Shown here: positions 20,348 through 41,803 of the stretch, in pieces
Layout of the letters: each line of letters opens with the position of its first letter
Position numbering within the stretch: position 1 is the stretch's first letter
Source: Candidatus Saganbacteria bacterium
GTDB taxonomy: Bacteria > Margulisbacteria > WOR-1 > XYC2-FULL-46-14 > WPAF01
NCBI GenBank assembly: GCA_009772965.1
Contig: WPAF01000001.1
Coordinates: 78,639-142,638, forward strand
Length of the DNA stretch: 64,000 nt
Direction of reading: 5' to 3'
Position numbers and translations under genes: made by a program
The notes under the pieces: model-generated
What the model saw: the letters and a program-made list of their open reading frames with translations, nothing else
Told to the model about the DNA's origin: nothing
Database searches by the model: none

Positions 20348-21123
20348 AGTTTTTCTCCTTTAAAAATTGCCAATAATTCGCCATGTATTTTACTGTTTGA
20401 TGCAACAACCTGTTTGGAATTCATACCACAGGGATGTCCGGAGAAGTCAGTTAATTCGCCGCCTGCCTCTGTTAAAATTACTATACCGGCTGCTATATCG
20501 CAAATCTTGGTTGCATTCCATACTCTTCCATCAATTTTGCCTGAAGCAATAAAGCATAGATCTCTGGTAGCTACCCCAAGGATCCTAGTGGTAAAAGCTC
20601 TCTCCGTCAATGTTTTATAATACTTAAAGGAATTTTCAGATAAATGAAACTGGTTATCATAGTTGACGATAGCCTTGGAAAGAACTCCATTGTCTGATAC
20701 GGAAATCGGTTCTCCATTACAAAAAGCTCCTTGCCCCCGCACTGCATAATATAATTCATTCTCCATAGGGAAATAGATAACTCCTAAATCAAATCTATCC
20801 CCTTCCATTAGAGCTATAGAGATGCCACTAAAAGGAAGACCTGCAATATAATTATGTGTGCCATCAATAGGATCGATGATCCAATTTTTGTCTCCCTTTA
20901 CATTCGAAAATCTTTTTTCTTCTGTAATAATTCCGCAAGAGGGGAAACCCCTACCCAATATTGCACATATCACTTCTTGAGATTTCATATCTACTTCTGA
21001 AACCATTTCCTTTGGAGATTTACGAATAATCCGATAATCTTTTTTAAAATTTGCTTTTAATATCTCACCCGCTGTCTTGGCCGCGTTAATAGCAATATCT
21101 AGGGCTTGATTGTCATCTTTCAT
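20344..21123 (-). CDS. Inositol monophosphatase-family phosphatase
   Basis: WIIDPIDGTHNY and ITEE motifs. 4-nt overlap with the PdxA-like gene. Confidence 0.85.
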   Translation of the reverse strand: MKDDNQALDIAINAAKTAGEILKANFKKDYRIIRKSPKEMVSEVDMKSQEVICAILGRGFPSCGIITEEKRFSNVKGDKNWIIDPIDGTHNYIAGLPFSGISIALMEGDRFDLGVIYFPMENELYYAVRGQGAFCNGEPISVSDNGVLSKAIVNYDNQFHLSENSFKYYKTLTERAFTTRILGVATRDLCFIASGKIDGRVWNATKICDIAAGIVILTEAGGELTDFSGHPCGMNSKQVVASNSKIHGELLAIFKGEKL

Positions 21124-22654: not shown

Positions 22655-22659
22655 TATTT

Positions 22660-23067
22660 TTATTTCTTCTCCTTTTCAACAAGTTCAACTAGTTCTTTTT
22701 CAGATGTATAAAGCCAAACTGTTAATTGATCCTTGTGTCCTTTACCAGGAACAGGCTCCCCAAATATAAGAGAGCCCTTTGCCCTTAAGGTTTTAATTGC
22801 TTCATGTATATCATCAACCTCAAAACAAAGATGATGCAACCCTCCACCCTGTGACAGAAACTTACTCACAGGAGAATCTTCACTAACCGGTTTTATTAGC
22901 TCTATGGTTAAATCCCGCCCAAGGCCCATTTCCACAAAACAAACCTCCACCTTTTGGATTGGATCTATGACCGGCTCATCCAATTTTGAAAAGCCAAAAG
23001 TGCTTTTGTAGTATTCAACCGCTTCTTCTAAATTACTTACGACCTTACCAATATGATGCAATCTCAT
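22660..23067 (-). CDS. VOC/glyoxalase-fold protein (methylmalonyl-CoA epimerase-like)
   Basis: MRLHHIGKVVSNLEEAVEYY and GGLHHLCFEVDDI. Confidence 0.7.
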   Translation of the reverse strand: MRLHHIGKVVSNLEEAVEYYKSTFGFSKLDEPVIDPIQKVEVCFVEMGLGRDLTIELIKPVSEDSPVSKFLSQGGGLHHLCFEVDDIHEAIKTLRAKGSLIFGEPVPGKGHKDQLTVWLYTSEKELVELVEKEKK

Positions 23068-24054
23068 TTAAAATATCTCCGTCGAATCACCCATGGTAAA
23101 ATACCAACTTTTTTTATCTTTAACTTCACCCGCATATTTAAATTCTTTGTTTAAACGAATAACAAGAGGAATTCTCGTAGCTTCCTTAATAAATCCTTTG
23201 CCTTCTAAGACCTGCTCGATGAGCCGACTGCCCCATAGCCAACAGGTAACCTCATCAACCTTTTGTTCGCTAAAAAAGCTTAAAGAACCATTAATAATCT
23301 TGGTTATGGTATCTTCATCATGAAGATCAGCAAAAATATCTATTATATGTCCCCTTAAAAGCTTATCCTCTCTATACAGCTTCAAAACCGAATAACCCTT
23401 AAGCTCACCATTAGCATAAACTCCAAATGGATAATACTTCCAATCTGGCCTTTCCAAATATCGCCAATTTAAATAAGCTTTATTTCTAACAACTACAATC
23501 TTATACTTTTCGGAACATAAATCCCAAAGCCGATCAAAATCATCATCAAATTCCTTGACCGGACGGAAAGAAGCTGAATCAGTAATATTTAACGTGCTTT
23601 TATCTATGGCCGGTCTTGTTATTTTCCAGGTATCAAACTCAATCAGATCCTCATATCCCATATGAGTTCTATGCACACGATAAGCTTTTTCATTTGGGAA
23701 ACCATATGTAAAAGGAATATTATTTTGTGCTGCCTCTTCGAATAATTTATCACCAACAAATTTCAACAGTCCCCTATTCTGATATTTTGGTTCGACCATA
23801 GCACCTATTGAATGTGAAGCGACCAATTCCTCATCAAAAACTTGCAGTCGATAAGGAACAACAGCAAAATGGGCAACAATATTATTTCCTTCTTCCATAA
23901 CCCAAATAAATGATTTTCCTGCCGGATTCTGATCGGAATACTTCCAGTACCAATTACTTAATTCCCTTCTATTCCAGGGATGTACTTCTAATCTTCGATC
24001 TAATTCCCAAAGTTTTATTTCGTCGCCTTCTTTATAGAGCCGTATTTTCATCAT
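23068..24054 (-). CDS. GNAT-family N-acyltransferase with an extra C-terminal domain
   Basis: IVAHFAVVPY...EPKYQNRGLLKFV matches the GNAT Q/RxxGxG/A-like motif. 328 aa. Abuts the pseI-like gene with no gap. Confidence 0.6.
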   Translation of the reverse strand: MMKIRLYKEGDEIKLWELDRRLEVHPWNRRELSNWYWKYSDQNPAGKSFIWVMEEGNNIVAHFAVVPYRLQVFDEELVASHSIGAMVEPKYQNRGLLKFVGDKLFEEAAQNNIPFTYGFPNEKAYRVHRTHMGYEDLIEFDTWKITRPAIDKSTLNITDSASFRPVKEFDDDFDRLWDLCSEKYKIVVVRNKAYLNWRYLERPDWKYYPFGVYANGELKGYSVLKLYREDKLLRGHIIDIFADLHDEDTITKIINGSLSFFSEQKVDEVTCWLWGSRLIEQVLEGKGFIKEATRIPLVIRLNKEFKYAGEVKDKKSWYFTMGDSTEIF

Positions 24055-25107
24055 TTATTCCAACATGCCTTCTTGAATTACATCTTCTTTATCAATATCT
24101 ACTTTTACTTTTCTGCCAACAATCAAGCCCAGATTCTTTGGTTCAATTCCGGTTCCAGGCCTGGTCATTTTTAGTTTCTCCCGACTCAACTGCTCACCTT
24201 TATTGATCCTGCATCTGGCTACAATACTTCTTCTTATTATCTTTCTGGCATCCAATTCCGCTTGAGACAAATTTCTTTGATAAGAGCCTAACGATTTTTC
24301 AACTTCTCTCACTGCTCTCACAAGTTCCTGCATGCCACTTGGTTCAAGTGCAAAAGGATGATCTGGACCTTCCATCTTTCGATCAAGAGTTATATGTTTT
24401 TCAATAATGCAGGCTCCCAAAGCTATGGAAGCCATTGCCATATAGTTATCAGGGCTGTGGTCAGAAAACCCTACCGGTAATCCAAAAGTCTTAATCAAGG
24501 TTACGATGTTCTTAAGATTTACCACTTCGGGATTGGGAGGATAACAAGATACGCAATGAAGCAGAGCAATTTGATCGTTTCCGTTCCTTAATATGGTTTC
24601 TACCGCTTCTTCTATTTCCCGTAAATAAGACATGCCGGTAGACAAAATAATAGGCTTTTTAAATTTAGCCAGCTCGCCTAAAAAATCCAAATAAGCAACA
24701 TCTATAGAAGCAATCTTAAAAACCGGAGGATCGAACTGCATGATAAACTCAGCATCCTTAATTGAGTGGACAGTAGAGAAAACATCCAATTCTTTATCCC
24801 TTGCATATTCAAACATTTCCTTAAACCATTCCCGCGGCATCAAAATCCGGTCTCTGGCAACCTCCCACCATGGCTGGTAGCCATAGTCCTTTTCATAGGC
24901 AACGTCACGGGTTGTAATTTTGCCGCTGAATACTTCTAATGGTTCATAAGTTTGGAACTTTATAGCATCAAAACCTGCATCCGATGCAGTATCAATCATC
25001 TTTCTGACAATTGTCTTGTCTAAATTATGATTAGAGCCTATCTCTGCAATAATATAGGTTGGATATTCTGGCTCGATTATTTTTTTATTGATCATTATTT
25101 TTTTCAT
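24055..25107 (-). CDS. pseI: Nonulosonic acid synthase (NeuB/PseI/LegI family) with C-terminal SAF domain
   Basis: IIAEIGSNHNLDKTIVRKMIDTASDAGFDAIKFQTY. C-terminal IVARCRINKGEQLSREKL forms the SAF domain. The Pse assignment rests on linkage with pseB/pseC/pseG-like genes. Confidence 0.75.
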   Translation of the reverse strand: MKKIMINKKIIEPEYPTYIIAEIGSNHNLDKTIVRKMIDTASDAGFDAIKFQTYEPLEVFSGKITTRDVAYEKDYGYQPWWEVARDRILMPREWFKEMFEYARDKELDVFSTVHSIKDAEFIMQFDPPVFKIASIDVAYLDFLGELAKFKKPIILSTGMSYLREIEEAVETILRNGNDQIALLHCVSCYPPNPEVVNLKNIVTLIKTFGLPVGFSDHSPDNYMAMASIALGACIIEKHITLDRKMEGPDHPFALEPSGMQELVRAVREVEKSLGSYQRNLSQAELDARKIIRRSIVARCRINKGEQLSREKLKMTRPGTGIEPKNLGLIVGRKVKVDIDKEDVIQEGMLE

Positions 25108-25120
25108 TTATTACTCCTAC

Positions 25121-26128
25121 TCATTTCAATACTTCTTCTACTGCTTTTTTAATGTCTACGACTTGCGGCAAAACTGCATCTTCTAAAATTTTAGTATTTG
25201 CTATCGGCACATTTTTGGCGGCTACTCTTTTAACTGGTGATTCCAATAATTCAAAACCATCATTTATTACTTGGGCTGCCATCTCAGCGCCCCATCCATT
25301 AAACAATGTCCCTTCTTCAACAATAACAAGTCTTCCTGTCTTTTCGACTGATTCCAATATTTCTGGCATAGATGCTTTATTAATATAACTGGGAACAATT
25401 ATTTCCGAAGTGACCTCATCTTCCAATAGCAATTCATTCAACGCAACCGTCACCCAAGGTAACATACCACCATAGGTCAAAACTGTCACTTGATGTTCTT
25501 TAAAATCATTATTCGACAAAATAATGGTCTCATATTCATCTTTACTTTTTCTGGCAGAATAATCAAAAATATGTCCGTTCTCTAATTCATCAATTTCCCG
25601 GGTGTACAAAACCTTGTTTTCAATAAAAAGAACCGGATCATTATCTTCAATCGCCTTGATTAGCTGCTCACCAGGATCATGAAAGTGACTGGGCGCAATA
25701 ATCTTTAATCCTGGAATGCCTAAAAACAACTTTTCCAGAGTTTGACTGTGGGTGGGGCCATAGCCTCTACGCCCCCCCATGGGAGTCCTGATAACCATGG
25801 GAACTGTTACTTTCCCTTTATACATCCAACCAAATTTTGTTGCATGATTAATAAGTTGATCGGCACATAATGTCAAAAAATCCCCAAACATTATCTCAAG
25901 TATCGGTCTTATTCCCCTCATTGCTAAGCCAGCAGCTAAGCCAGTCAATGCCCATTCGCTCATGGGAGTATTTATAACTTGATCGGGATATTTCGTTGAC
26001 AAACCTTTTGTTATTTTAAAAGCTCCTCCATAAGGGTCACAGACATCTTCCCCAAGGAGGATAACATTCTTGTCTTTCTTTAATTTATAATCTAATGCCT
26101 GACTAATTGATTGTGCATAGGTAATCAT
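25121..26128 (-). CDS. 2-oxoacid (pyruvate/acetoin-type) dehydrogenase E1 beta subunit, lipoyl-linked set
   Basis: Canonical LLGEDVCDPYGGAFKITKGL, NTPMSEWALTG, and FGDFLTLCADQLINHA. Confidence 0.9.
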   Translation of the reverse strand: MITYAQSISQALDYKLKKDKNVILLGEDVCDPYGGAFKITKGLSTKYPDQVINTPMSEWALTGLAAGLAMRGIRPILEIMFGDFLTLCADQLINHATKFGWMYKGKVTVPMVIRTPMGGRRGYGPTHSQTLEKLFLGIPGLKIIAPSHFHDPGEQLIKAIEDNDPVLFIENKVLYTREIDELENGHIFDYSARKSKDEYETIILSNNDFKEHQVTVLTYGGMLPWVTVALNELLLEDEVTSEIIVPSYINKASMPEILESVEKTGRLVIVEEGTLFNGWGAEMAAQVINDGFELLESPVKRVAAKNVPIANTKILEDAVLPQVVDIKKAVEEVLK

Positions 26129-26723
26129 TTAATTTCCTCTCCAGACAAATCTCAACTTCATTCGCTGAGTATTTATATCCCTCTTTCCCCAACGAAGTTA
26201 AAAAATCCTCGTGTTTTCTTTTAAGACGATAAGCAGGTTCCTTTGAGGGATGTTTCAAATATTTATTAATAATTTCCATTCTCGGGTTAATAAGCAAGGA
26301 GCCCTGATAAAAAAGAAGTTTTTGTTCTCTATACATCGAAGAACCTAAAATTTTATTTTCATTTATGCAGATATCTGATATACCCTTTTTACTCAAACCA
26401 TCAATATTTAAATCCCTAAGCCCTTGAACTATTAATTCATTTATCTGATTGAAATATAATTGATTGCCAAAATCACTCTCTACGAATTTAGCAATAGAAA
26501 TTATCAATACCCCTTCAGTTAGAACCACCGCACCACCACCACCCAACCTCCTTAATATCTTAATGTTGTCTTTTTTGGCTCTGCTAACAAAAACCTCAAT
26601 TTCCGGTTTGTTTGCCCTACCTAGAACGATAACAGTATCGAGTGCTGCCCAAATCCTAATCCTGTATTTCCCATCTTTCTTAACCAGTCCTATCATATCT
26701 TTCATATCTTTGTTAAAATTCAT
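26103..26723 (-). CDS. Lipoate-protein ligase / octanoyltransferase family protein (catalytic domain only, 206 aa)
   Basis: LRRLGGGGAVV (RRxxGGGAV motif) and NENKILGSS (catalytic Lys context). 4-nt overlap with E1 alpha. Confidence 0.7.
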   Translation of the reverse strand: MNFNKDMKDMIGLVKKDGKYRIRIWAALDTVIVLGRANKPEIEVFVSRAKKDNIKILRRLGGGGAVVLTEGVLIISIAKFVESDFGNQLYFNQINELIVQGLRDLNIDGLSKKGISDICINENKILGSSMYREQKLLFYQGSLLINPRMEIINKYLKHPSKEPAYRLKRKHEDFLTSLGKEGYKYSANEVEICLERKLNDYLCTIN

Positions 26724-27631
26724 TGAAATAACCCCTCATAGATGCTATCAATTTTTGGAAAATCAGCTTTACTAGCTTTTTCTACAGCTGATTCTATTCT
26801 ACTTGCACACTTTTCACGTATTGAATTTTTTACATCTTTATCCAAACGAGCCCCTAAAATGGTCAGAGGGTCTTTATCTTTCCATCCTATTTCTTCTTCC
26901 CTGGTTCTATAATTACAATCATCGCTTTTACTGTGTCCACACTGTCGATAAGTATTTATAACTAAAAAATGCGGCCTTGACTGCTTTCTAACACCATCGG
27001 CAATCTTTTCAAAAGAGGAATAAATTACTTCAACATCGTTTGTATTCAATTCTTGTGCTTCTATGCCAAAAGCTTTTGCCCGATCAATCATGCTCCCTGC
27101 CACTCCACAGGAAATATGCGTGCTCATTGCATAATAATTATTTTCTAAAACATACACTATAGGCAGTTTCCAAAGTGAAGCCATATTTAAAGATTCATAA
27201 AGCACTCCTTCGCCTAAAGCTCCGTCACCAAAAAAAGATATTACAATTCTCTCGCTTTTCTTCAATTTTTCAGCCAATGCCATTCCGGTCGCAACTGCGG
27301 TCATACCGCCGGTAATTCCGTTGGCATAAAAATCCCCTTTGCATAAATGCTGACTCCCGCTGCGTCCCGCACATATCCCCGTAGCTTTTCCCATAAGTTC
27401 AGCCATTAATCCATCAACATCATCTGTAGAAGCAATAAAATGACCATGCCCCCTATGATTACTGGTAATAATATCGCCTTCGTTCATTGCCTGAGTTATG
27501 CCAACAGCAACAGCTTCTTGGCCGATACAAGCATGGGTGGTTCCAAAAAGTATCCCTTGAGTAAAAAGTTCTTCTATCTTTTCTTCAAAAAGTCTGATTA
27601 AAAGCATTTGCTCAAAGAATTTTTTTCTCAT
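26720..27631 (-). CDS. 2-oxoacid dehydrogenase E1 alpha subunit, lipoyl-linked set
   Basis: NHRGHGHFIA and GDGALGEGVLYESLNMASLWKLPIVYVLENN ThDP motif. Confidence 0.9.
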   Translation of the reverse strand: MRKKFFEQMLLIRLFEEKIEELFTQGILFGTTHACIGQEAVAVGITQAMNEGDIITSNHRGHGHFIASTDDVDGLMAELMGKATGICAGRSGSQHLCKGDFYANGITGGMTAVATGMALAEKLKKSERIVISFFGDGALGEGVLYESLNMASLWKLPIVYVLENNYYAMSTHISCGVAGSMIDRAKAFGIEAQELNTNDVEVIYSSFEKIADGVRKQSRPHFLVINTYRQCGHSKSDDCNYRTREEEIGWKDKDPLTILGARLDKDVKNSIREKCASRIESAVEKASKADFPKIDSIYEGLFQ

Positions 27632-28725
27632 TTACGTTTCCCTATAATTTTCCCAGGGACTCCTTCCACAACAGAATTATCCGGAATATCTCTTGTCACA
27701 CTACTTCCGACACCGATAATTACCTTGCTGCCAATTTTAACTTTCGTTGAAATACAGGCACCAATACCAACAATAGTTTGATTCCTAATTTCAATATTAC
27801 TGCCCAGAGAAACTCCCGGAGCCAAGTGACAGCCTTCTTCGATTATGTTGTCGTGCGCTATCATTACTCCGTTATCAATAATACAGCAGTCTCCGATAAT
27901 AGTGTTTGTCTCAATAATTGCCCCCGCTTTAATAAAAACCCCCTCGCCCAAAGTTACCGAAGGCGCAATAAAAGCTTTAGGATGTACAACATTAATATAC
28001 TTTAATCCAAAATTTTTCAGTTTTCCCCTTAGATTTAATCTGAATTCTGAATTTGCGATCTCTGAAGCTACTCCGACAACTCCATTCTTCTTTATTTCTT
28101 CTAACCGATCGCCACTTAAACATTGAATCCCTTCCACCTCAGAACCAATGTTGGGGTTGTCATCAATAAAATAGCCCACTTCGTATCCCCCCATTAGTTC
28201 TACGCATTCCTTAATCGTTAATCCCCCACGACCTGCGCCATAAATTGCAATGCGTTGCTTGTGATTAGTTTTCTTCTTCTCAATAAAAGCTTTTATGTCT
28301 TTCTCTCTTATAATTCCGATTTTTTCTACGCTAGAAATATTTATTCCCAATGAATCAGCCAAAGCCCTTGCTTTATTTGTTATCTTTTTTTTCGCAACAA
28401 AAACATTTTTTGTTGTGTCTGCAACCTTTTCATTGTTCTCTTGAACAGAAACAGGGATTTCATAATCGCAAGAATCGGAGATATAACCAATGGTATCTCT
28501 GATTCTAATTTGCTCTCCAGCCATGGCCTTCATAAAAATAAACCCAGATTCTTCTGCTGTTAATTCTGTTGCGACTTTAGTTGTTTCAATAATACATATT
28601 GGGTCACCTTTACTCACTTTTGCTCTGTCGCTAACAAGCCATTCAACAAGCATAGCAAAATCATCATTAACCCCCAGTTGAGGAATTTTAATTTCGTAAA
28701 CAGCATGCATTATATTACCTTCCAA
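27628..28725 (-). CDS. Fusion protein: lipoyl domain + peripheral-subunit-binding-like segment + NeuD/PglD-type sugar N-acyltransferase (left-handed beta-helix)
   Basis: N-terminus: IKIPQLGVNDDFAMLVEWLV...IIETTKVATEL, with candidate lipoyl-Lys50 at codon 28576-28578. Middle: KARALADSLGINISSVEKIGIIREKDIKAFI. C-terminus: RIAIYGAGRGG...YFIDDNP plus hexapeptide repeats ending VVEGVPGKIIG. No E2 catalytic-domain signature was recognised. Confidence 0.8.
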   Translation of the reverse strand: MEGNIMHAVYEIKIPQLGVNDDFAMLVEWLVSDRAKVSKGDPICIIETTKVATELTAEESGFIFMKAMAGEQIRIRDTIGYISDSCDYEIPVSVQENNEKVADTTKNVFVAKKKITNKARALADSLGINISSVEKIGIIREKDIKAFIEKKKTNHKQRIAIYGAGRGGLTIKECVELMGGYEVGYFIDDNPNIGSEVEGIQCLSGDRLEEIKKNGVVGVASEIANSEFRLNLRGKLKNFGLKYINVVHPKAFIAPSVTLGEGVFIKAGAIIETNTIIGDCCIIDNGVMIAHDNIIEEGCHLAPGVSLGSNIEIRNQTIVGIGACISTKVKIGSKVIIGVGSSVTRDIPDNSVVEGVPGKIIGKRK

Positions 28726-28746: not shown

Positions 28747-29757
28747 TTAGTTGCATGTTGTTTTGTCGAATTTTTCTAAGATTTGAGTAGCAACTCTGCT
28801 GCTTCCTATTCCATCTACATATTTTTTCCCAATCTCACTTGCTTCTTTTCTTATTTGCTGACTCCTCAATTCATCAAAACAATTTTTTACATTTTCAAGA
28901 AAGCGGGAGTCGTTATACCACCCTGCATATTTCATAAAACCAACTTCAGACCATCCCTTAAGATTCATCTCTTGATTATCAGCCACACAAATGCCAATTG
29001 CTGGCGTGCCAGTAACTGCCAGCTCAAAAGTGGTTTGTCCGCCCGCAGAAATTGCAATGTCACAGCTAAGCATTAAATCCCGCATTGCTTCGGCGCCAGG
29101 CTTAAAAATAAATCTTACCTTTTTGTTATTTTTATATTCATCCATATAATCAGTATTTATAAAACCCCAACCAATAACTACATTTAAGGTACAATCAAAA
29201 TTATTTAAAAGTAGTTCCATTATACGTGGGGTCGAGTTATTTGCATCATCCCCCCCAAAAGTTATAAGGACATTATTTATGTCTTTTTTTATAATTCGAT
29301 CATATGGCTTACAAAATTCTCTTCTTAAAAACGCATATTCAGAACCCAAAAGATAGATTATGTCCTCTTTTTCGGGATAACTAAACTTTCTAGCACAAAC
29401 CGATCCGTTGAGCACAATGCCAGACGGATAGTTAATTCGGTTAAAATCATCCAAACATACTAAAAGCTTAACCATTTTAGAAAGCCCTATATATTCCTCT
29501 GCTTTCATCTTATATGAATCTATTACTAACACATCTATCCCTTTTACCAGTTCGCTGGTACGCTCATAAGCATTTTGCCAATCAAAAGTAAAATGTTTAA
29601 TTACATTCTTAAACTGCCCCAAGACACTTTCATCAGAATTAACAATAAAAAATGGTTTTGCCCCTCTTTTTTCAAGCTCATAATACAAAGAAAGACAACG
29701 CATAATATGCCCAAAACCAATACCCTTTCCACCCTCAGTGCGGATTGCAATCTTCAT
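28747..29757 (-). CDS. pseG: PseG-like UDP-sugar hydrolase (GT-B fold)
   Basis: MKIAIRTEGGKGIGFGHIMRCLSL matches the PseG N-terminal signature (xIGxGHxxR). 4-nt overlap with the cytidylyltransferase gene. Confidence 0.65.
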   Translation of the reverse strand: MKIAIRTEGGKGIGFGHIMRCLSLYYELEKRGAKPFFIVNSDESVLGQFKNVIKHFTFDWQNAYERTSELVKGIDVLVIDSYKMKAEEYIGLSKMVKLLVCLDDFNRINYPSGIVLNGSVCARKFSYPEKEDIIYLLGSEYAFLRREFCKPYDRIIKKDINNVLITFGGDDANNSTPRIMELLLNNFDCTLNVVIGWGFINTDYMDEYKNNKKVRFIFKPGAEAMRDLMLSCDIAISAGGQTTFELAVTGTPAIGICVADNQEMNLKGWSEVGFMKYAGWYNDSRFLENVKNCFDELRSQQIRKEASEIGKKYVDGIGSSRVATQILEKFDKTTCN

Positions 29758-30482
29758 TTTTGTGCCTCCGGAATCAGTTTTCTATTTAAAACATATTCTA
29801 ATAAATAGAAATCTTCTTCATGATCAACTTCTAATATATAAGGGAAATCATGGATAAACGGCATTATTCTTCCCATGTAAAAATGCCCGTCTATTTGAGG
29901 TATGGATTCATCCATCAAGACTTTTGTTTTAATCGCCTGCACTGATCCATCATGCATATACGTCTTTGGCATTTCCTGCGTTCTAAAACGCAATACCATG
30001 GGTTTTTCTCTGAATTCTAAGAGATCTCCTCGAATAATTTTCATTGATTCCGGATGTTGATCTGCTTCGAAAACAGTAGACACGGTATCTGTTTTTTCAA
30101 AATTATCGATCAATTTTTTAATGACCCGATCAACCAATCCCTTTTCCCTAAAAGGAACATTGGGCTGCAACCAAACCACGATATCGGGAAGCCAACCTTC
30201 TGATCTTTCAATTTCTTTAACCGCATGCCTTAGAGCAAAATAAATGGGGGCTTCATCAGTGGCATACTCAATCGGGCGCATAATACACTTAACCCCTTCT
30301 TTTAGAGCTATCACAGCAATTTTTTCATCATCGGTAGAGACTACGCTTATAGCAACACTTTGTGCTTCTTGCGCATCCCTTATTGTATAAGCAATCAATG
30401 GGATGCCATTCAAAAGTCGAATATTCTTATTTTTTACGCGTTTACTTCCGCCCCGTGCAGGAATAACACATAAAGTTTTCAT
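29754..30482 (-). CDS. pseF: CMP-nonulosonic acid synthetase (acylneuraminate cytidylyltransferase family)
   Basis: CVIPARGGSKRVKNKNIRLLNGIPLIAYTI. Confidence 0.8.
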   Translation of the reverse strand: MKTLCVIPARGGSKRVKNKNIRLLNGIPLIAYTIRDAQEAQSVAISVVSTDDEKIAVIALKEGVKCIMRPIEYATDEAPIYFALRHAVKEIERSEGWLPDIVVWLQPNVPFREKGLVDRVIKKLIDNFEKTDTVSTVFEADQHPESMKIIRGDLLEFREKPMVLRFRTQEMPKTYMHDGSVQAIKTKVLMDESIPQIDGHFYMGRIMPFIHDFPYILEVDHEEDFYLLEYVLNRKLIPEAQK

Positions 30483-31852
30483 GCAATTTTCTCCATTTTT
30501 GTATGTCTTTTTGTATTCCAGGCCTTTAATTCTTTTATCATATCTTCTCTAATTTCAAACAACTCCTCATTTGACCAATGGGTAAAATTGACCAATATTT
30601 GCTCTCCCTGCTCCCACAATTTACAAATATACTCAAATTCATTTTGGATCAGCCCTTTTTTTAACGCATAATCATATAATTCCGTCCCTGGGTAGGCTGT
30701 TGCAAAGAATATGGCTTCAGGGATAAAATCAATATCTTTACAAAACCCAACTGTCTCTCGGATTGTTTCTTTGGTTTCCCCTGGTAATCCAAGGACAAAT
30801 GTCCCCCCCACCTCGCCAAACACTTCCCGCGTAAGTTTAATGGCATTCTTGGTTTGCTCAACCGTAACATTTTTTTTCATCAGATCAAGCATCTTCTGGC
30901 TGCCGGACTCAATCCCATAACCAACCATATTACAACCCACTTCTTTCAAGTTTTGCAAAACTTCTTTATCTACCAAATTAACCCTGCCCGCAAAACAAAA
31001 TTGAAACCCCGGCTTTTCCTTTCTCATTAAGCCGCAAAAATCATCAATAAACCTTCGGTTGATCATTGATTCATCATCTGCCCAAATAAAATAAGTAACG
31101 CCATAATGCTCATTTAAAAAGCGCATCTCTTTTAAAACATATTCCGGCGAATGATGCCGATACCCTGCTCCCATAAAATCGTGATAGCAAAAAATACACT
31201 TATACGGGCATCCCCGAGTAACATTAATATTTGTTGACTTAGGCACGCCCGATTCAACCTGCTTCCCGTCTGCCCACTTATTCTTATTAATATGTCCAAC
31301 CGGATTGTTAACATAGATATCCATGGGGAATAGGTCATAAGCGGGCAAGGGGATAGCATCTAAATCGGCAATTGGTTTTCTCGCTGGTTTTTTTATAATT
31401 TTGCCGTCTTCACCTTTATAGTAGATCCCGGCCACGTTACCTAAATTGTCATTTTTGCTTATTGCATTTACAATTTCAACAATTGTAATTTCTCCCTCAC
31501 CGATACAAGCAATATCAGCTTGAGTGTTAGCTAAAATAAGTTCCGGAATAGAAGTGGAAACTCCTCCTCCTAAAATAATCTTCGCAGCGGGGCGATATTT
31601 TTTTATGGCTGCCACTAGCCATGTAATATATTTGGCGGTGGTCACAATTCCACCCGTACCTACAATATCATATTGCAGGCTCTGCAATTTATCCTCAACC
31701 TGTTCTTTTGTGTAACGAAAAGCATTGATATCTAATACTCCAACTTCATGTCCCGCTTCCCGCAAAACACTTGCCAGATAAGCCAACCCCAGGGGAACGC
31801 AATTTGGCGCAGCCCATTCCCTAATGGGTGGATTGATCAACAAAACCTTCAT
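30479..31852 (-). CDS. Cobalamin(B12)-binding-domain radical SAM enzyme (class B)
   Basis: KVLLINPP...LGLAYLASVLREAGHEVGVLD B12-binding region and CPYKCIFC cluster motif. Confidence 0.85.
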   Translation of the reverse strand: MKVLLINPPIREWAAPNCVPLGLAYLASVLREAGHEVGVLDINAFRYTKEQVEDKLQSLQYDIVGTGGIVTTAKYITWLVAAIKKYRPAAKIILGGGVSTSIPELILANTQADIACIGEGEITIVEIVNAISKNDNLGNVAGIYYKGEDGKIIKKPARKPIADLDAIPLPAYDLFPMDIYVNNPVGHINKNKWADGKQVESGVPKSTNINVTRGCPYKCIFCYHDFMGAGYRHHSPEYVLKEMRFLNEHYGVTYFIWADDESMINRRFIDDFCGLMRKEKPGFQFCFAGRVNLVDKEVLQNLKEVGCNMVGYGIESGSQKMLDLMKKNVTVEQTKNAIKLTREVFGEVGGTFVLGLPGETKETIRETVGFCKDIDFIPEAIFFATAYPGTELYDYALKKGLIQNEFEYICKLWEQGEQILVNFTHWSNEELFEIREDMIKELKAWNTKRHTKMEKIA

Positions 31853-38525: not shown

Positions 38526-39495
38526 TAAAGCCTCTCTGTTCCTGAATGATAAATTGGGGGGTTTGGTTGCTGGACAAAAACAAACGTCCCAAGTATTCGC
38601 CGATGACACCCAGAATAATAAGTTGAATCCCGGAAAACATAAAAATCGAAATTACTATTGTAGCCCAACCTGTGGGAGCTGTTGGATGAAAAATTTTATC
38701 TATTAGAAATATAATTGCCAAAATAAAACCTACTAAGGCGAAAAACAAACCTATGAGCATTGAAATTCTCAAGGGCAGAACAGAAAAATTGGTAAACATG
38801 TTCAACCAGAGGGAAACCAGTTTCCTGAATGTGTAACCGGATTCTCCCCTGAGACGCCTCCTATGCTCAACTTGAACCGTCCCAATATTCATGGTGCTCC
38901 TAAAAATCAGACCGTCAATATAAGGATATGGACCGCGATATTTTATAATCTCATTGATTAAAACCCGGCTAAAGATTTTAAAACTGCATAAATAGAGTCC
39001 CCTGGGTTTTTTCAATAGTATGGTCGCAACTCGATCGTTAAAAGCGCTGCCGAGATTCCGAAAAAAGCTGTGCTTCTTGACTTTATAATTTGCAAAGACT
39101 ACATCATAGCCCTTGTTGATCTCATCGATCAGTTTGGGTATTTCCTCCGGTGGATTTTGGCCATCGTCATCCATCACAATGGCAAAATCGCCCCGGACAT
39201 ATTTTAATCCTGCAATAACCGCATTATGTTCGCTAAAATTACGCGTGAGTTTTAAGATTTTAATTTTAGGATCAGCCGCATTGAGTTTTTTCATCACTTG
39301 CCATGAGTTATCCCGACTCCCGTCATTCACCAGGATAATTTCATAAGCCAGCCGCAATTTATTAAAAACCGCATTTACACTCAAGCAAACATCTTCCAGC
39401 ATCTGTTCACTATTATAAACCGGCATGACTATTGAATATTTCGGTGCTTCAATCACATTTCTCACATCCACTTTCGATCCGTTCGCAAACATCAC
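38506..39495 (-). CDS. GT2 polyprenyl-phosphate glycosyltransferase (ArnC/GtrB/DPM1-like)
   Basis: YSIVMPVYNSEQ, VMDDDGQNPPEEI, and two C-terminal TM helices ending in GVIGEYLGRLF. Confidence 0.85.
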   Translation of the reverse strand: MMFANGSKVDVRNVIEAPKYSIVMPVYNSEQMLEDVCLSVNAVFNKLRLAYEIILVNDGSRDNSWQVMKKLNAADPKIKILKLTRNFSEHNAVIAGLKYVRGDFAIVMDDDGQNPPEEIPKLIDEINKGYDVVFANYKVKKHSFFRNLGSAFNDRVATILLKKPRGLYLCSFKIFSRVLINEIIKYRGPYPYIDGLIFRSTMNIGTVQVEHRRRLRGESGYTFRKLVSLWLNMFTNFSVLPLRISMLIGLFFALVGFILAIIFLIDKIFHPTAPTGWATIVISIFMFSGIQLIILGVIGEYLGRLFLSSNQTPQFIIQEQRGFNDNIKS

Positions 39496-40609
39496 GAAGC
39501 TTAGCTATAACGTAATCCTGCTGCTCATCGGTCATTTTCGGATACATCGGTATTGACAAGCATTTTCTATAATATTTTTCCGCATTTGGACATAGCCCGC
39601 GCTCGTAACCGAGGCTCTGATAATACGGCTGTAAATAAACCGGTAAATAATGCACATTCACCAAAACACCAAAACTTCGCATAAAATCAAATACTTTCCT
39701 TCTGTTTTCAACCGAAACAACATAAAGATGATAAGAGGACAATACTTCTTGAGTTTCTTCAAATATATTAATTTCAGAAGAATCTTTAAAAGCATTAGTA
39801 TATTTCTTGGCTATTTTCCTTCTCCTTTCAACAAATTTATCGAGTTTTTTTAGCTGACTCATACCCAGCGCGCACTGAAAATCTGTCATCCGATAGTTCA
39901 ACCCTAATTCGTGCATCTCATAATACCAATCGCCTCCATTTTGATTTTTCATTATTTTTGGATCTCTCGTAATTCCATGCGTTCTAAACATCAAAAGCTT
40001 CTCATAATAGACTTCGTTATTTGTCAGGAGCATTCCACCCTCGCCCGTTGTTATATTTTTTACTGCATGAAAGCTTAAAACCGTCATATCCGAATACTTG
40101 CAGACCCCGATTTTTGATCCTTTGTATTCGGCGCCAAGAGCATGGCTGGCATCTTCAATTATCAACAGATCATTTTTTTCGGCAATTGCTTTTATCTCTT
40201 CAAGATCACAAGGTTGGCCAGCAAAATGGACTGGGATAATTGCTTTGGTTTTATTGGTTATTTTCTTCTTAATATTTTTTGGATCAATATTAATAGTGTC
40301 TTCTTGGATATCAGCAAATACCGGTCTGCCCCCGCAATACAAAATACAATTAGCCGAAGCGACAAAAGTAATAGGGGAAGTAATTACTTCATCTCCGGTT
40401 TTTATTCCGGCGGCAAAACAAGCCGCATGCAATGCAGCGGTTCCGGAACTAACTGCTACCGCATATTTAACTCCGCAATATTTTGCAACCTTTTTCTCAA
40501 ACTCGGCTATTCTGGAGCCTTGTGTTAGGTAATCCGAACGTAGCGCCCCAATCACCGCCTTGACATCTGTGCCATCAATCCATTGCATCGCGTAGGGAAT
40601 TTGCTTCAA
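39449..40609 (-). CDS. pseC: UDP-4-amino-4,6-dideoxy-N-acetyl-beta-L-altrosamine transaminase type (PseC)
   Basis: IPYAMQWIDGTDVKAVIGALRSDYLTQGSRIAEFE and the FHAVKNITTGEGG PLP-Lys motif. Confidence 0.8.
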   Translation of the reverse strand: MKQIPYAMQWIDGTDVKAVIGALRSDYLTQGSRIAEFEKKVAKYCGVKYAVAVSSGTAALHAACFAAGIKTGDEVITSPITFVASANCILYCGGRPVFADIQEDTINIDPKNIKKKITNKTKAIIPVHFAGQPCDLEEIKAIAEKNDLLIIEDASHALGAEYKGSKIGVCKYSDMTVLSFHAVKNITTGEGGMLLTNNEVYYEKLLMFRTHGITRDPKIMKNQNGGDWYYEMHELGLNYRMTDFQCALGMSQLKKLDKFVERRRKIAKKYTNAFKDSSEINIFEETQEVLSSYHLYVVSVENRRKVFDFMRSFGVLVNVHYLPVYLQPYYQSLGYERGLCPNAEKYYRKCLSIPMYPKMTDEQQDYVIAKLRDVCERIESGCEKCD

Positions 40610-40613
40610 AGAT

Positions 40614-41803
<1,190 letters not shown>

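What the first reader, a model, noticed from the sequence alone, without database searches (positions are those of the whole stretch)
25121..28725. Lipoyl-carrier::sugar-N-acyltransferase fusion with its own E1 alpha/beta and lipoate ligase, sitting in the pseH slot of a pseudaminic-acid operon
Seen: four tightly coupled genes lie exactly between the pseG-like (28747-29757) and pseI-like (24055-25107) genes. They overlap by 4 nt at 27628-27631 and 26720-26723, and by 26 nt at 26103-26128. ORF 27628-28725 begins with a lipoyl domain (...PICIIETTKVATEL..., candidate lipoyl-Lys50 at codon 28576-28578). Next comes a peripheral-subunit-binding-like segment (KARALADSLGINISSVEKIGIIREKDIKAFI). Where an E2 catalytic domain would be expected there is instead a NeuD/PglD-type Rossmann plus left-handed-beta-helix acyltransferase (RIAIYGAGRGG...YFIDDNP, then hexapeptide repeats to the C-terminus). 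It is followed by a canonical E1 alpha (NHRGHGHFIA; GDGALGEG...ENN), a 206-aa LplA/LipM-family protein (LRRLGGGGAVV, NKILGSS) and a canonical E1 beta (GEDVCDPYGGAF). Established: E1 enzymes reductively acylate lipoyl-lysine from 2-oxo acids, and NeuD/PglD/PseH-type enzymes N-acylate 4-amino sugars using acyl-CoA. Inference: the acyl group made from a 2-oxo acid (pyruvate to acetyl, hydroxypyruvate to glycolyl, or another) is passed from the lipoyl arm directly to the amino-sugar intermediate, bypassing CoA, with a dedicated ligase to charge the carrier. No E3 (dihydrolipoamide dehydrogenase) is present in the window. I know of no biochemically characterised example of this architecture.
Basis: partly seen in the sequence, partly recalled or inferred. 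Interest (0 to 1): 0.9.

Follow-up and report, generated by a model that had tools for sequence, protein, structure and literature searches.

The report
Lipoyl-arm sugar N-acyltransferase with own E1
In a pseudaminic-acid sugar operon of an uncultured Saganbacteria genome, a sugar N-acyltransferase carries the swinging lipoyl arm of a pyruvate-dehydrogenase E2 and sits beside its own E1 enzyme; the same arrangement recurs in about ten bacterial lineages, which suggests an undescribed way of putting acyl groups on cell-surface sugars without coenzyme A.

Summary
ORF 27628-28725 encodes a lipoyl domain (invariant E-T-x-K, K50), a disordered linker, a peripheral-subunit-binding domain (PSBD, seen at profile level), and a NeuD/PglD/PerB-type Rossmann plus left-handed beta-helix (LbH) N-acyltransferase that keeps the catalytic His. 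It is translationally coupled to E1 alpha, a short LplA-like protein and E1 beta, and lies between PseG and a NeuB/PseI-type synthase. PseB, PseC and PseG score above equivalog cutoffs. There is no canonical PseH, E2 core or E3.

- **Recurrence:** 227 cluster representatives at E<=1e-30, with E1 alpha/beta adjacent in 19 of 20 contexts.
- **Variants:** a split form exists, and a second LbH scaffold carries the same head.
- **Best explanation (about 0.55):** E1 loads an acyl group onto the lipoyl arm, and the LbH trimer transfers it to the 4-amino group of the UDP-sugar.

Direct, CoA-free transfer and the identity of the acyl group are inferred, not shown. "Replaces PseH" is only partly right, because small PseH-like GNATs coexist with the fusion in some loci. 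The ligase-like gene was found only in the window's closest clade. No literature precedent was found. It is a new variant of known kinds, of high interest.

The parts
27628..28725 (-). Type-I fusion protein (365 aa from TTG 28725, or 360 aa from ATG 28710): lipoyl domain, linker, PSBD, then a NeuD/PerB-type N-acyltransferase
28477..28701 (-). Lipoyl domain (residues 9-83). The E47-T48-x-K50 motif is invariant in 24 homologues. The K50 codon is 28576-28578.
   Evidence: Pfam PF00364; alignment A1; model pLDDT about 90+; Foldseek lipoyl domains with TM 0.7-0.8 and rmsd 1.3-1.6; profile hits to E2p lipoyl domains at 1e-20
28390..28476 (-). Flexible linker (residues 84-112); residues 93-111 are predicted disordered
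   Evidence: pLDDT <50; variable length and sequence in A1
28270..28389 (-). Peripheral-subunit-binding-domain-like two-helix unit (residues 113-152); T116, A119 and E141 are invariant
   Evidence: profile A4 finds isolated PSBDs 1W4I, 4QOY_E and 2EQ8_C; helices 117-126 and 141-152; PF02817 in sister-family members
28012..28257 (-). PglD_N-type Rossmann subdomain (residues 157-238), the nucleotide-sugar-binding part of this enzyme family
   Evidence: PF17836; pLDDT 87-93
27631..27993 (-). Left-handed beta-helix acyltransferase domain (residues 245-365). The invariant H291 (codon 27853-27855) aligns with the catalytic His141 of PerB.
   Evidence: (4EA7 compared with the H141N and H141A mutants 4EAA and 4EAB)
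26720..27631 (-). E1 alpha (pair A), 303 aa. ThDP motif GDGALGEG...ENN (27137-27229). H233 lies in 'CGHSKSDD' and is equivalent to H271 alpha of G. stearothermophilus E1p.
26103..26723 (-). Short LplA-like protein (206 aa) with a catalytic domain only. K124 lies in 'NKILGSS' (codon 26352-26354). There is no C-terminal accessory domain.
   Evidence: PF21948; weak NCBIfam ligase hits; alignment to E. faecalis LplA 5IBY; the same position and the same 26-nt overlap occur in L042
25121..26128 (-). E1 beta (pair A), 335 aa. H127 lies in 'THSQ' and is equivalent to H128 beta of G. stearothermophilus E1p.
28747..29757 (-). PseG (UDP-2,4-diacetamido-2,4,6-trideoxy-beta-L-altropyranose hydrolase)
   Evidence: TIGR03590 scores 167 bits against a cutoff of 153.55
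24055..25107 (-). NeuB-family nonulosonic acid synthase (PseI-like)
   Evidence: PF03102 plus SAF. TIGR03586 PseI scores 295.7 and TIGR03569 NeuB scores 316.2; both are below their cutoffs.
29754..30482 (-). CMP-sugar cytidylyltransferase (PseF-like)
   Evidence: PF02348. TIGR03584 scores 94 bits, below its cutoff.
40614..41588 (-). PseB (inverting UDP-GlcNAc 4,6-dehydratase)
   Evidence: TIGR03589 scores 544 bits against a cutoff of 407.75
39449..40609 (-). PseC aminotransferase, which makes the UDP-4-amino sugar proposed as the acceptor
   Evidence: TIGR03588 scores 522.7 bits against a cutoff of 423.5

Best explanation
The module is a self-contained acyl-generating and acyl-delivering unit for an amino-sugar intermediate of a pseudaminic-acid-type nonulosonic acid.

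Proposed steps:
1. The ThDP-dependent E1 alpha2-beta2 (pair A) docks on the PSBD of the fusion protein.
2. E1 decarboxylates a 2-oxo acid. By homology this is a pyruvate-like small substrate whose identity is not determined.
3. E1 reductively acylates the lipoyl-lysine (K50) on the N-terminal carrier domain.
4. The roughly 30-residue flexible linker lets the S-acyl-dihydrolipoyl arm swing into the active site of the C-terminal NeuD/PerB-type LbH trimer. That trimer takes the structural place of the trimer-based E2 core.
5. His291 deprotonates the 4-amino group of the nucleotide-bound sugar made by PseB and PseC (UDP-4-amino-4,6-dideoxy-beta-L-AltNAc), which attacks the thioester. The result would be an N-acyl group that ends up on N7 of the nonulosonic acid.
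6. PseG, PseI and PseF then complete the pathway.
7. The reduced arm is presumably re-oxidised by a housekeeping E3 recruited to the same PSBD.
8. In this clade a short LplA-like enzyme encoded between E1 alpha and E1 beta modifies the carrier.

Shown here: the domain architecture, the catalytic residues, the conserved gene linkage, and the fusion and fission variants.

Inferred: direct lipoyl-to-sugar transfer, the acceptor, the acyl identity and the use of E3.
For: - **Architecture and catalytic residues.** Lipoyl E-T-x-K, PSBD, Rossmann subdomain, LbH with the PerB-equivalent His, the E1 ThDP motif and both lipoyl-directed histidines are all present.
- **Gene linkage across about ten lineages.** E1 alpha and E1 beta lie directly beside the fusion in 19 of 20 contexts. 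The E1 orthologues beside fusions are 40-75% identical to pair A. The window's other E1 pairs are only 30-35% identical.
- **Rosetta-stone variants.** L013 has NeuD, E1 alpha, E1 beta and then a stand-alone lipoyl-PSBD protein. The P0039 context has a fused E1 alpha-beta next to the fusion. A second family of at least 80 members puts the same head on a different LbH scaffold. It shares a single E1 pair with the type-I fusion in L041 and L007.
- **No alternative acyl route in the neighbourhood.** No 2-oxoacid_dh (E2 core) domain, ACP or E3 appears in the window or in any Pfam-labelled context. So there is no encoded route from acyl-lipoyl to CoA.
- **Pathway context.** PseB, PseC and PseG score above equivalog cutoffs and no PseH is detectable in the window. 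The order PseG, [E1, fusion], NeuB recurs in L039, L040, L041, L013 and L010.
- **Precedents.** QncN/L/M uses a ThDP E1 and a lipoyl arm to feed a biosynthetic acyl unit without CoA (PMC6335953). LbH enzymes that take carrier-tethered acyl thioesters, LpxA and LpxD, are among the profile's PDB hits.
- **Head similarity.** In L041 the two heads sharing one E1 are 61% identical. Their orthologues in L007 are 39-48% identical.
Against: - No experiment or structure shows a lipoyl arm entering an LbH active site. All characterised NeuD, PglD and PerB enzymes use acyl-CoA (PDB titles).
- The LbH domain keeps the family's usual sequence features, so nothing indicates that CoA binding has been lost.
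- E1 alpha looks like a pyruvate-type E1. If the product were acetyl, the module would seem redundant with acetyl-CoA-dependent PseH, and small PseH-like GNATs do coexist with it in L039, L040 and L001.
- No E3 is encoded nearby, so turnover depends on an unverified host enzyme.
- L006 has the fusion but no E1 within 10 kb.
- Some loci (L011, L014, the P0039 context) have no NeuB within the flanks, so the acceptor may not always be a nonulosonic-acid precursor.
- The head-similarity test failed in L007.
Confidence: 0.55

Rival explanations
1. CoA-mediated mini-complex. E1 acylates the lipoyl arm, and the acyl group is first passed to CoA. This could happen in the LbH donor site, with the LbH acting as a surrogate E2, or through a housekeeping E2. 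The NeuD domain then uses acyl-CoA like its characterised relatives. Fusion and PSBD docking would serve only to channel a locally made, unusual acyl-CoA.
For: All solved relatives (PerB, PglD, PglB-ATD, VioB, Pcryo_0637) were crystallised with CoA or acetyl-CoA. The LbH domain passes the NeuD family cutoff with no obvious loss of features.
Against: No E2 catalytic domain is encoded in the window or in any of the Pfam-labelled contexts. Covalent fusion of the carrier to the acyltransferase, on two different LbH scaffolds, is most simply explained if the arm itself visits that active site.
Confidence: 0.2
2. Pair A E1 is a lipoyl-independent carboligase, like AviB1/AviB2 and Pau11/Pau12. It would add a C2 branch to a keto-sugar. 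On this view the lipoyl-PSBD head is regulatory or vestigial, and the NeuD domain works with acyl-CoA.
For: E1 alpha/beta-like pairs have been proposed to install C-acetyl branches on sugars (PMC4753412). The window contains two such carrier-less pairs beside 4,6-dehydratase, epimerase and SDR genes.
Against: Pair A orthologues are a distinct group that is almost always adjacent to a lipoyl-PSBD carrier. The lipoyl lysine motif and the PSBD residues are invariant across 24 diverse sequences. The carrier persists as a separate gene in the split locus L013. All of this argues for purifying selection on a working swinging arm.
Confidence: 0.07
3. The four genes are simply the organism's housekeeping pyruvate or acetoin dehydrogenase and happen to lie in a sugar locus.
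For: E1 alpha and E1 beta are PDH-like by sequence. The lipoyl head weakly matches the acetoin dehydrogenase E2 model.
Against: There is no E2 catalytic core and no E3. The genes are translationally coupled inside the PseG-PseI interval. The same linkage to NeuB and Pse genes appears in unrelated phyla.
Confidence: 0.02
4. The N-terminal domain is a biotinyl carrier rather than a lipoyl carrier.
For: Pfam PF00364 covers both kinds, and the fold search also finds BCCP domains.
Against: The motif is E-T-x-K-A/V, not A-M-K-M. The profile's sequence hits are E2 lipoyl domains. A PSBD follows the domain. The partners are E1 alpha/beta and, in this clade, an LplA-family protein. No carboxylase genes are present.
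Confidence: 0.02

Closest known systems
2-oxoacid dehydrogenase complexes with heterotetrameric E1 (for example G. stearothermophilus or human PDH; acetoin dehydrogenase)
   Same: E1 alpha/beta with the ThDP motif and the two histidines used for reductive acylation of lipoate. A lipoyl domain with the modified lysine at a beta-turn. A flexible linker and a PSBD that docks E1 and E3.
   Different: The E2 catalytic core (2-oxoacid_dh) is replaced by a NeuD/PerB-type Rossmann plus LbH sugar N-acyltransferase. No E3 is encoded nearby. The genes lie inside a glycan operon. The PSBD loop is three residues shorter than the canonical one.
NeuD / PglD / PglB-ATD / PerB / VioB N-acetyltransferases of 4-amino sugars
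   Same: An N-terminal nucleotide-binding Rossmann subdomain, an LbH and a catalytic His (PerB H141 corresponds to H291). The fusion scores above the TIGR03570 cutoff.
   Different: It carries a 155-residue lipoyl-PSBD head and is genetically tied to E1 alpha/beta. The characterised members are stand-alone proteins of about 200 aa that use acetyl-CoA.
QncN/QncL/QncM and SclQ1-4 (glycolicacyl-ACP formation for non-ribosomal peptides)
   Same: A ThDP E1-like enzyme plus a lipoyl arm, recruited to biosynthesis so that an acyl unit is made and handed on without free CoA (PMC6335953).
   Different: In those systems an E2-type acyltransferase domain passes the acyl group to an ACP. Here there is no E2 domain and no ACP, and the acyltransferase is an LbH sugar N-acyltransferase. 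The E1 substrate there is a ketose phosphate; here it is unknown.
PseH (GNAT) of the canonical pseudaminic acid pathway
   Same: The proposed step is the same: N-acylation of UDP-4-amino-4,6-dideoxy-beta-L-AltNAc between PseC and PseG. No PseH model hit exists in the window.
   Different: The fold is unrelated (LbH against GNAT) and the proposed donor differs. In L039, L040 and L001 a small PseH-like GNAT coexists with the fusion, so the fusion is not a universal replacement.
LpxA / LpxD
   Same: LbH acyltransferases whose donor is a thioester on a protein-tethered arm, acyl-ACP. They are among the profile's PDB hits.
   Different: Their carrier is a separate ACP with phosphopantetheine, not a fused lipoyl-lysine domain. 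Their acyl groups come from fatty-acid synthesis, not from an E1.
AviB1/AviB2 and Pau11/Pau12 sugar-branching E1-like pairs
   Same: E1 alpha/beta-like pairs encoded in sugar biosynthesis clusters (PMC4753412).
   Different: They have no lipoyl carrier, and the proposed chemistry is C-C bond formation. This comparison probably fits the window's pairs B and C rather than pair A.

Membership tests
2-oxoacid dehydrogenase multienzyme complex | ThDP-dependent E1 with the GDG...NN motif and catalytic histidines (alpha H271 and beta H128 in G. stearothermophilus numbering) | tested here: met
   E1_dh 4.7e-59, plus Transket_pyr and Transketolase_C. GDGALGEG...ENN, alpha H233 and beta H127 are conserved.
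2-oxoacid dehydrogenase multienzyme complex | Lipoyl domain with a conserved lipoyl-lysine | tested here: met
   PF00364. E47, T48 and K50 are invariant in 24 sequences. Profile hits to E2p lipoyl domains at 1e-20. Actual lipoylation could not be tested.
2-oxoacid dehydrogenase multienzyme complex | Peripheral subunit-binding domain | tested here: met
   The single sequence falls below Pfam reporting. The profile of this segment alone hits isolated PSBDs at 2e-6 to 1e-4. PF02817 is recorded for three type-II relatives.
2-oxoacid dehydrogenase multienzyme complex | E2 catalytic (2-oxoacid_dh, CAT-like) core domain | tested here: not met
   No PF00198 hit in the fusion or in any other window ORF, nor in any Pfam-labelled related locus.
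2-oxoacid dehydrogenase multienzyme complex | E3 dihydrolipoamide dehydrogenase | tested here: not met
   None in the window, in the 10 kb beyond its left edge, or in the related loci (same calls). An E3 elsewhere in the genome could not be checked.
NeuD/PglD/PerB sugar N-acetyltransferases | PglD_N Rossmann subdomain plus LbH, scoring above the family cutoff | tested here: met
   TIGR03570 scores 169.3 against a cutoff of 160.8. PF17836 and PF00132. PerB 4EA7 scores 171 bits with the profile.
NeuD/PglD/PerB sugar N-acetyltransferases | Catalytic histidine (PerB H141) | tested here: met
   It aligns with the invariant H291 in 'IAHDN'. The mutants 4EAA and 4EAB differ from wild type at exactly this column.
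NeuD/PglD/PerB sugar N-acetyltransferases | Acyl-CoA as the acyl donor | not testable with these tools
   This needs biochemistry or a complex structure.
Pseudaminic acid pathway (PseB, C, H, G, I, F) | PseB, PseC and PseG at equivalog level | tested here: met
   TIGR03589 scores 544 (cutoff 408). TIGR03588 scores 523 (cutoff 424). TIGR03590 scores 167 (cutoff 154).
Pseudaminic acid pathway (PseB, C, H, G, I, F) | PseH GNAT N-acetyltransferase | tested here: not met
   No PseH model hit for any of the window ORFs scanned with NCBIfam. The 328-aa GNAT has no NCBIfam hit at all.
Pseudaminic acid pathway (PseB, C, H, G, I, F) | PseI and PseF at equivalog level | tested here: inconclusive
   The NeuB-family protein scores 296 with PseI and 316 with NeuB, both below their cutoffs. 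PseF scores 94 against a cutoff of 206.
Lipoate-protein ligase A (LplA) | Catalytic domain with the lipoyl-AMP-binding lysine | tested here: met
   PF21948, 3.7e-25. K124 aligns with the conserved K of E. faecalis LplA 5IBY.
Lipoate-protein ligase A (LplA) | C-terminal accessory domain (or a separate LplB) needed for adenylation; score above the equivalog cutoff | tested here: not met
   The protein is 206 aa, all of it catalytic domain. TIGR00545 scores 76 against a cutoff of 280. No LplB-like ORF is adjacent. It may therefore be a transferase rather than a ligase.
QncN/L/M-type glycolicacyl-ACP system | Lipoyl domain fused to an E2-type acyltransferase, plus a dedicated ACP | tested here: not met
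   No 2-oxoacid_dh domain was found. No ACP-sized ORF fits the tightly packed 19.3-31.9 kb interval.

The most novel reading that the evidence does not exclude
A previously unrecognised class of lipoyl-dependent enzyme system. The swinging lipoyl arm of a 2-oxoacid dehydrogenase would deliver an E1-generated, probably non-acetyl acyl group directly to LbH sugar acyltransferases. Examples of such acyl groups are glycolyl, propionyl or a hydroxyacyl. No CoA or ACP would be involved. Two different LbH scaffolds have independently acquired the same lipoyl-PSBD head and can share one E1. Together with a PIG-L deacetylase they may re-tailor both N7 and N5 of pseudaminic-acid-like sugars in many uncultured phyla.
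Probability: 0.45. Interest if true: 0.9.

Novelty: new variant of a known kind. Interest (0 to 1): 0.8.

Why it matters
As far as I know, lipoyl-dependent chemistry is confined to a handful of central-metabolic complexes (PDH, OGDH, BCKDH, acetoin dehydrogenase, glycine cleavage) and one natural-product system, Qnc.

A lipoyl arm feeding a glycan-tailoring acyltransferase would add a new role for lipoate. It would also add a new logic for N-acyl diversity in nonulosonic acids, which shape surface antigenicity, phage and immune recognition, and flagellin function.

The finding gives a directly testable hypothesis with few components: four proteins plus PseB and PseC. It supplies a genomic marker (lipoyl-PSBD-LbH beside E1 alpha/beta) for predicting unusual surface sugars in uncultured bacteria. 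It also offers a natural example of an E2 core swapped for an unrelated trimeric acyltransferase, which is useful for engineering CoA-independent acylation.

Tried and rejected
- **Pfam E3_binding on the single sequence.** There was no hit at E<=0.01. This was resolved with a segment profile against the PDB.
- **LplA-like gene as a universal partner.** Rejected. tblastn found it in none of L001-L038. It recurs in L042, from the closest clade. More distant members of the short LplA family sit in housekeeping contexts.
- **Housekeeping PDH and biotin carrier.** Both were rejected; see the rival explanations.
- **Carrier heads sharing one E1 are more alike than their orthologues.** True in L041 (61% against 39-48%) but not in L007 (42%). 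The result is inconclusive.
- **Inferring the E1 substrate.** PDB and NCBIfam comparisons say only that E1 alpha is PDH-type rather than BCKDH-type. No conserved neighbouring gene makes an obvious 2-oxo acid. An AP_endonuc_2 TIM-barrel gene lies directly upstream of the fusion in L001 and L042 but not in the window.
- **E3, an E2 core or further carriers beyond the window's left edge.** None were found.
- **Literature.** Ten full-text searches combined pseudaminic, legionaminic, nonulosonic, NeuD or hexapeptide with lipoyl, E1 or acetoin. They found no description of this architecture. Subscription-only papers are not covered.
- **Rfam.** No RNA families were found in the window.

Full report
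**1. What is in the sequence**

All are on the minus strand and all are translationally coupled:

| Gene | Coordinates | Length |
|---|---|---|
| Fusion | 27628-28725 | 365 aa |
| E1 alpha | 26720-27631 | 303 aa |
| LplA-like | 26103-26723 | 206 aa |
| E1 beta | 25121-26128 | 335 aa |

The overlaps are 4, 4 and 26 nt. Immediately upstream lies PseG, where TIGR03590 scores 167 bits against a cutoff of 153.55. Immediately downstream lies a NeuB-family synthase.

Further upstream, PseB and PseC score far above their equivalog cutoffs: TIGR03589 at 544 bits and TIGR03588 at 523 bits. A PseF-like cytidylyltransferase precedes PseG.

The fusion's start is ambiguous. TTG at 28725 has a GAGGAG Shine-Dalgarno sequence 8 nt upstream. 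ATG at 28710 is the start used in the public gene call P0001, which is 360 aa. Neither choice affects any domain.

The identical LplA-like protein is annotated in NCBI as coming from a Candidatus Saganbacteria MAG, on a contig of 183,860 bp. From about 46 kb the window holds housekeeping genes (AlaRS, PheST, DnaB, RecG), so the locus is chromosomal.

**2. Architecture of the fusion**

Pfam gives Biotin_lipoyl (residues 11-63), PglD_N (158-231) and Hexapep. NCBIfam places residues 159-359 in the NeuD/PglB/VioB family above its cutoff. No 2-oxoacid_dh domain is present.

In an alignment of 24 homologues at 38-57% identity, these residues are invariant:
- E47, T48 and K50, the lipoyl-lysine turn.
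- T116, A119 and E141, in the PSBD-like segment.
- H248-P249, D284, H291 and H300.

An AlphaFold model built from that alignment has a mean pLDDT of 77:

| Segment | Residues | pLDDT |
|---|---|---|
| Lipoyl barrel | 9-83 | about 90 or more |
| Disordered linker | 93-111 | below 50 |
| PSBD-like unit (helices 117-126 and 141-152) | 117-152 | 76-85 |
| Rossmann subdomain | 157-238 | 87-93 |
| LbH | 245-365 | lower, as expected for a monomer model of a trimeric fold |

Foldseek finds E2 proteins, lipoyl domains (TM 0.7-0.8, rmsd 1.3-1.6 Å), PerB, PglB-ATD, PglD and VioB.

A profile of the PSBD-like segment alone retrieves isolated E2 peripheral-subunit-binding domains as its best PDB matches: 1W4I at 1.9e-6, 4QOY_E and 2EQ8_C. 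The loop is three residues shorter than in those domains.

The whole-protein profile aligns best with PerB, the GDP-perosamine 4-N-acetyltransferase (171 bits). The column that differs between wild-type PerB and its H141N and H141A mutants is the fusion's invariant H291.

**3. The partners**

E1 alpha carries the ThDP motif GDGALGEG...ENN. It is much closer to human-type PDH E1 alpha (152 bits) than to BCKDH E1 alpha (95 bits or less).

The two histidines implicated in reductive acetylation of lipoate in G. stearothermophilus E1p are H271 alpha and H128 beta (PMC2663715). They correspond, by motif, to H233 in 'CGHSKSDD' and H127 in 'THSQ', and both are conserved.

The 206-aa protein is an LplA/LipB-superfamily catalytic domain (PF21948). 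The conserved lysine, K124 in 'NKILGSS', aligns to E. faecalis LplA. The protein lacks the C-terminal accessory domain and scores far below the ligase equivalog cutoff. Whether it is a ligase or a transferase is therefore open.

**4. Is the combination real biology?**

Yes. A word-indexed search returned 467 relatives. Nearly all of the best 120 are 340-400 aa and carry PF00364 plus PF00132.

An exhaustive HMMER scan of 1.84 billion cluster representatives gave 227 hits at E<=1e-30. About 125 of the best 150 span both the head and the body.

I examined 20 independent genomic contexts that hold a full-length fusion:
- the window;
- L001, L003-L012, L014, L015, L018 and L039-L042;
- the P0039 contig.

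Their record titles assign them to Saganbacteria, Omnitrophota, Hydrogenedentota, Planctomycetales, Synergistia, Nitrospiraceae, Chloroflexi, Magnetococcales, Pseudomonadales, Rhodospirillaceae and Bacteriovoracaceae. None comes from a cultured isolate.

What the contexts show:
- **E1 adjacency.** E1 alpha and E1 beta lie directly beside the fusion in 19 of the 20 contexts. In L004 and L008 only E1 beta is visible before the contig ends. The exception is L006, which has no E1 within 10 kb.
- **Orthology.** The adjacent E1s are 40-75% identical to pair A. The window's other E1 pairs are only 30-35% identical.
- **Ordinary relatives.** Unfused NeuD relatives at 26-34% identity (L019-L038) have no E1 beside them.
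- **NeuB.** A NeuB gene lies within the fetched flanks in 12 of the 20 contexts.
- **Gene order.** The order PseG, E1 alpha, E1 beta, fusion, NeuB recurs in L039, L040 and L041.

**5. Fusion and fission variants**

- **Split form.** L013, a complete Omnitrophota chromosome, has PseG, a stand-alone NeuD (57% identical, starting exactly at the Rossmann subdomain), E1 alpha, E1 beta, a stand-alone 145-aa lipoyl-PSBD protein ('IIETTKAV', 'KATQKARALAESLGVDI...GIIREKDV') and then NeuB.
- **Fused E1.** In the P0039 context, E1 alpha and E1 beta are fused into one 655-aa protein directly upstream of the fusion.
- **Second scaffold (type II).** A family of at least 80 members, about 480-540 aa, carries the same lipoyl-PSBD head on a different, non-NeuD LbH scaffold. 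Three members have a precomputed PF02817 E3_binding hit.
- **Shared E1.** In L041 and L007, type I and type II fusions lie in one locus with a single E1 pair.
- **Head similarity.** In L041 the two heads are 61% identical, while their catalytic bodies share only about 26%. Orthologous heads in L007 are 39-48% identical. L007 does not show the same pattern.

These variants are the strongest computational evidence that E1, carrier and LbH acyltransferase work as one unit.

**6. What is absent**

No E2 catalytic domain, ACP or E3 was found in three places:
- the window;
- the 10 kb beyond its left edge;
- any Pfam-labelled related locus.

So no encoded route leads from acyl-lipoyl to CoA. Re-oxidation of the arm must rely on an enzyme encoded elsewhere.

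**7. Most likely mechanism (confidence about 0.55)**

1. E1 docks on the PSBD.
2. E1 decarboxylates a small 2-oxo acid and reductively acylates lipoyl-K50.
3. The arm, on a linker of about 30 residues, delivers the thioester to the LbH trimer. That trimer stands where the trimer-based E2 core would be.
4. H291 activates the 4-amino group of the UDP-sugar produced by PseB and PseC, giving the N-acyl group that becomes N7 of the nonulosonic acid.
5. PseG, PseI and PseF finish the pathway.

The Rossmann subdomain, which binds the nucleotide in this enzyme family, argues that the acceptor is still nucleotide-linked. That places the step before PseG.

Precedents for the logic:
- QncN/L/M and SclQ1-4 use a ThDP E1 and a lipoyl arm to hand a glycolicacyl unit to an ACP without CoA (PMC6335953).
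- LpxA and LpxD are LbH enzymes that take carrier-tethered thioesters (the donor chemistry is from my own knowledge).

Shown: the architecture, the residues and the linkage. Inferred: direct transfer, the acceptor, the acyl identity and the use of E3.

**8.

- **'In the pseH slot'.** This is right for this window. No PseH model hit exists, and the only nearby GNAT is an atypical 328-aa protein with no NCBIfam match. L041 and L013 likewise show no GNAT in the operon. In L039, L040 and L001, however, a small PseH-like GNAT coexists with the module. The fusion is therefore not a general PseH replacement. It may install a second or alternative acyl group.
- **Possible re-acylation of N5.** PIG-L-family deacetylases recur in these loci: window 13599-14300, L039, L040, and next to the type-II fusion in L041. 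This hints at de-N-acetylation followed by re-acylation of the other nitrogen, N5. That is an inference.
- **'Its own lipoate ligase'.** The gene is a clade-specific addition. Only L042, whose fusion is 56% identical, repeats the order fusion, E1 alpha, LplA-like, E1 beta, NeuB, including the 26-nt overlap.
- **Acyl group.** The E1 looks pyruvate-type, which would give acetyl. A three- or four-gene module to make acetyl seems redundant where a PseH-like GNAT and acetyl-CoA are available. I therefore regard a non-acetyl acyl group as likely, but it is unproven.

**9. Rivals**

| Rival | Confidence | Main objection |
|---|---|---|
| CoA-mediated channelling | about 0.2 | Cannot be excluded, because every characterised relative uses acyl-CoA |
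| AviB1/AviB2-type C-branching role for pair A | about 0.07 | Invariant lipoyl and PSBD features; the carrier persists as a separate gene in the split locus |
| Housekeeping PDH | about 0.02 | Contradicted by the architecture and the synteny |
| Biotin carrier | about 0.02 | Contradicted by the lysine motif, the E2-type sequence hits and the partner genes |

**10. Novelty**

Ten full-text searches found no paper that describes a lipoyl domain fused to a hexapeptide or NeuD acyltransferase, or that links E1 or lipoate genes to pseudaminic or legionaminic acid biosynthesis. Subscription-only literature is not covered.

Public annotations call these proteins 'NeuD family sugar O-acyltransferase', 'biotin/lipoyl attachment protein' or hypothetical.

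All components are known kinds. The combination, and the implied use of a lipoyl arm as acyl donor for glycan tailoring, is a new variant and would surprise specialists in both fields. I score interest at 0.8.

Noticed in passing
window 6573-8551 (pair B) and 1544-3552 (pair C), minus strand: Two more E1 alpha/beta pairs lie in the same glycan locus. They are only 30-35% identical to pair A, and no lipoyl carrier, E2 or E3 lies within reach, including the 10 kb beyond the window edge. Pair B follows a GDP-mannose-4,6-dehydratase-family gene (8552-9541). Pair C is followed by an SDR (697-1479). Both E1 beta proteins have a C-terminal extension ending in 'FKGPF'. They resemble the AviB1/AviB2 and Pau11/Pau12 systems plus the ketoreductase Pau7, which are proposed to add and then reduce a C-acetyl branch on a keto-sugar (PMC4753412).
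   Followed up: partly
L041 11390-12937; L007 7783-9318: A second fusion family (type II, about 480-540 aa, at least 80 members) has the same lipoyl-PSBD head on a different, non-NeuD LbH acyltransferase with a C-terminal extension. In L041 it sits next to a PIG-L deacetylase and a second NeuB. It shares one E1 pair with the type-I fusion in both L041 and L007.
   Followed up: partly
window 21113-24054: Directly downstream of pseI lie an atypical 328-aa GNAT (no NCBIfam hit), a VOC/methylmalonyl-CoA-epimerase-like protein and an acyl-CoA ligase. This looks like a separate, CoA-dependent acylation system in the same operon. The ligase has no tblastn hit in the other loci searched.
   Followed up: partly
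window 13599-14300, 17205-18464, 19304-21123; also L039 and L040: A PIG-L-family deacetylase, a class-III (GSA-aminomutase-like) aminotransferase and an IMPase/HisN-like phosphatase recur with the module in L039. L040 has the first two. The window adds a PdxA that scores above its equivalog cutoff. Their role is unexplained. One possibility is de-N-acetylation and re-acylation of N5, or synthesis of an aminated side group.
   Followed up: no
window 3573-5579, 15797-17212, 30479-31852, 34148-35725; 10855-11820(+): The locus holds four B12-binding radical SAM enzymes, one SPASM radical SAM enzyme (the only plus-strand gene in the locus) and several methyltransferases. This suggests heavily C-methylated or otherwise tailored sugars.
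   Followed up: no
P0039 context (JGI 3300047160, 61,965-bp contig; no DNA held): A sub-clade of fusions (P0036, P0039, P0049, P0108) has a fused 655-aa E1 alpha-beta directly upstream and a methyltransferase downstream, with no sugar-pathway genes within 9 kb. The acceptor may be something other than a nonulosonic-acid precursor.
   Followed up: no
L006 9950-11110: A Planctomycetales locus has PseB, PseC, PseG, NeuB, a methyltransferase and then the fusion, but no E1 alpha/beta within 10 kb.
   Followed up: partly
L001 8182-8961; L042 2114-2875: An AP_endonuc_2 (xylose-isomerase-like TIM barrel) gene lies immediately upstream of the fusion in the two loci closest to the window. From my own knowledge, this family includes hydroxypyruvate isomerase. 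It may be a clue to the E1 substrate. The gene is absent from the window.
   Followed up: no
L001 13626-17035: Downstream of the module lie a MaoC-dehydratase/SDR fusion, an FkbH_N protein (595 aa) and an 81-aa ORF with no Pfam hit. This may be a second acyl-donor system in the same locus.
   Followed up: no
P0172 (747 aa, JGI): A 747-aa protein is 72% identical to the type-II fusion over 70% of that query. JGI annotates it as NeuD family, and it carries lipoyl and hexapeptide Pfam hits. It may be a type-II plus type-I double fusion.
   Followed up: no
L043 and L044 (7001-7630): More distant members of the short (about 205 aa) LplA-like family, for example in Candidatus Vecturithrix granuli, sit in a conserved housekeeping context (T2SSE ATPases on one side, an HD-domain protein on the other). 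No E1 or lipoyl proteins are nearby.
   Followed up: partly
window 11852-13597 and 18490-19317: These ORFs match the families TIGR04331 (LIC12162 family transferase) and TIGR04325 (MTase_LIC12133).
   Followed up: no
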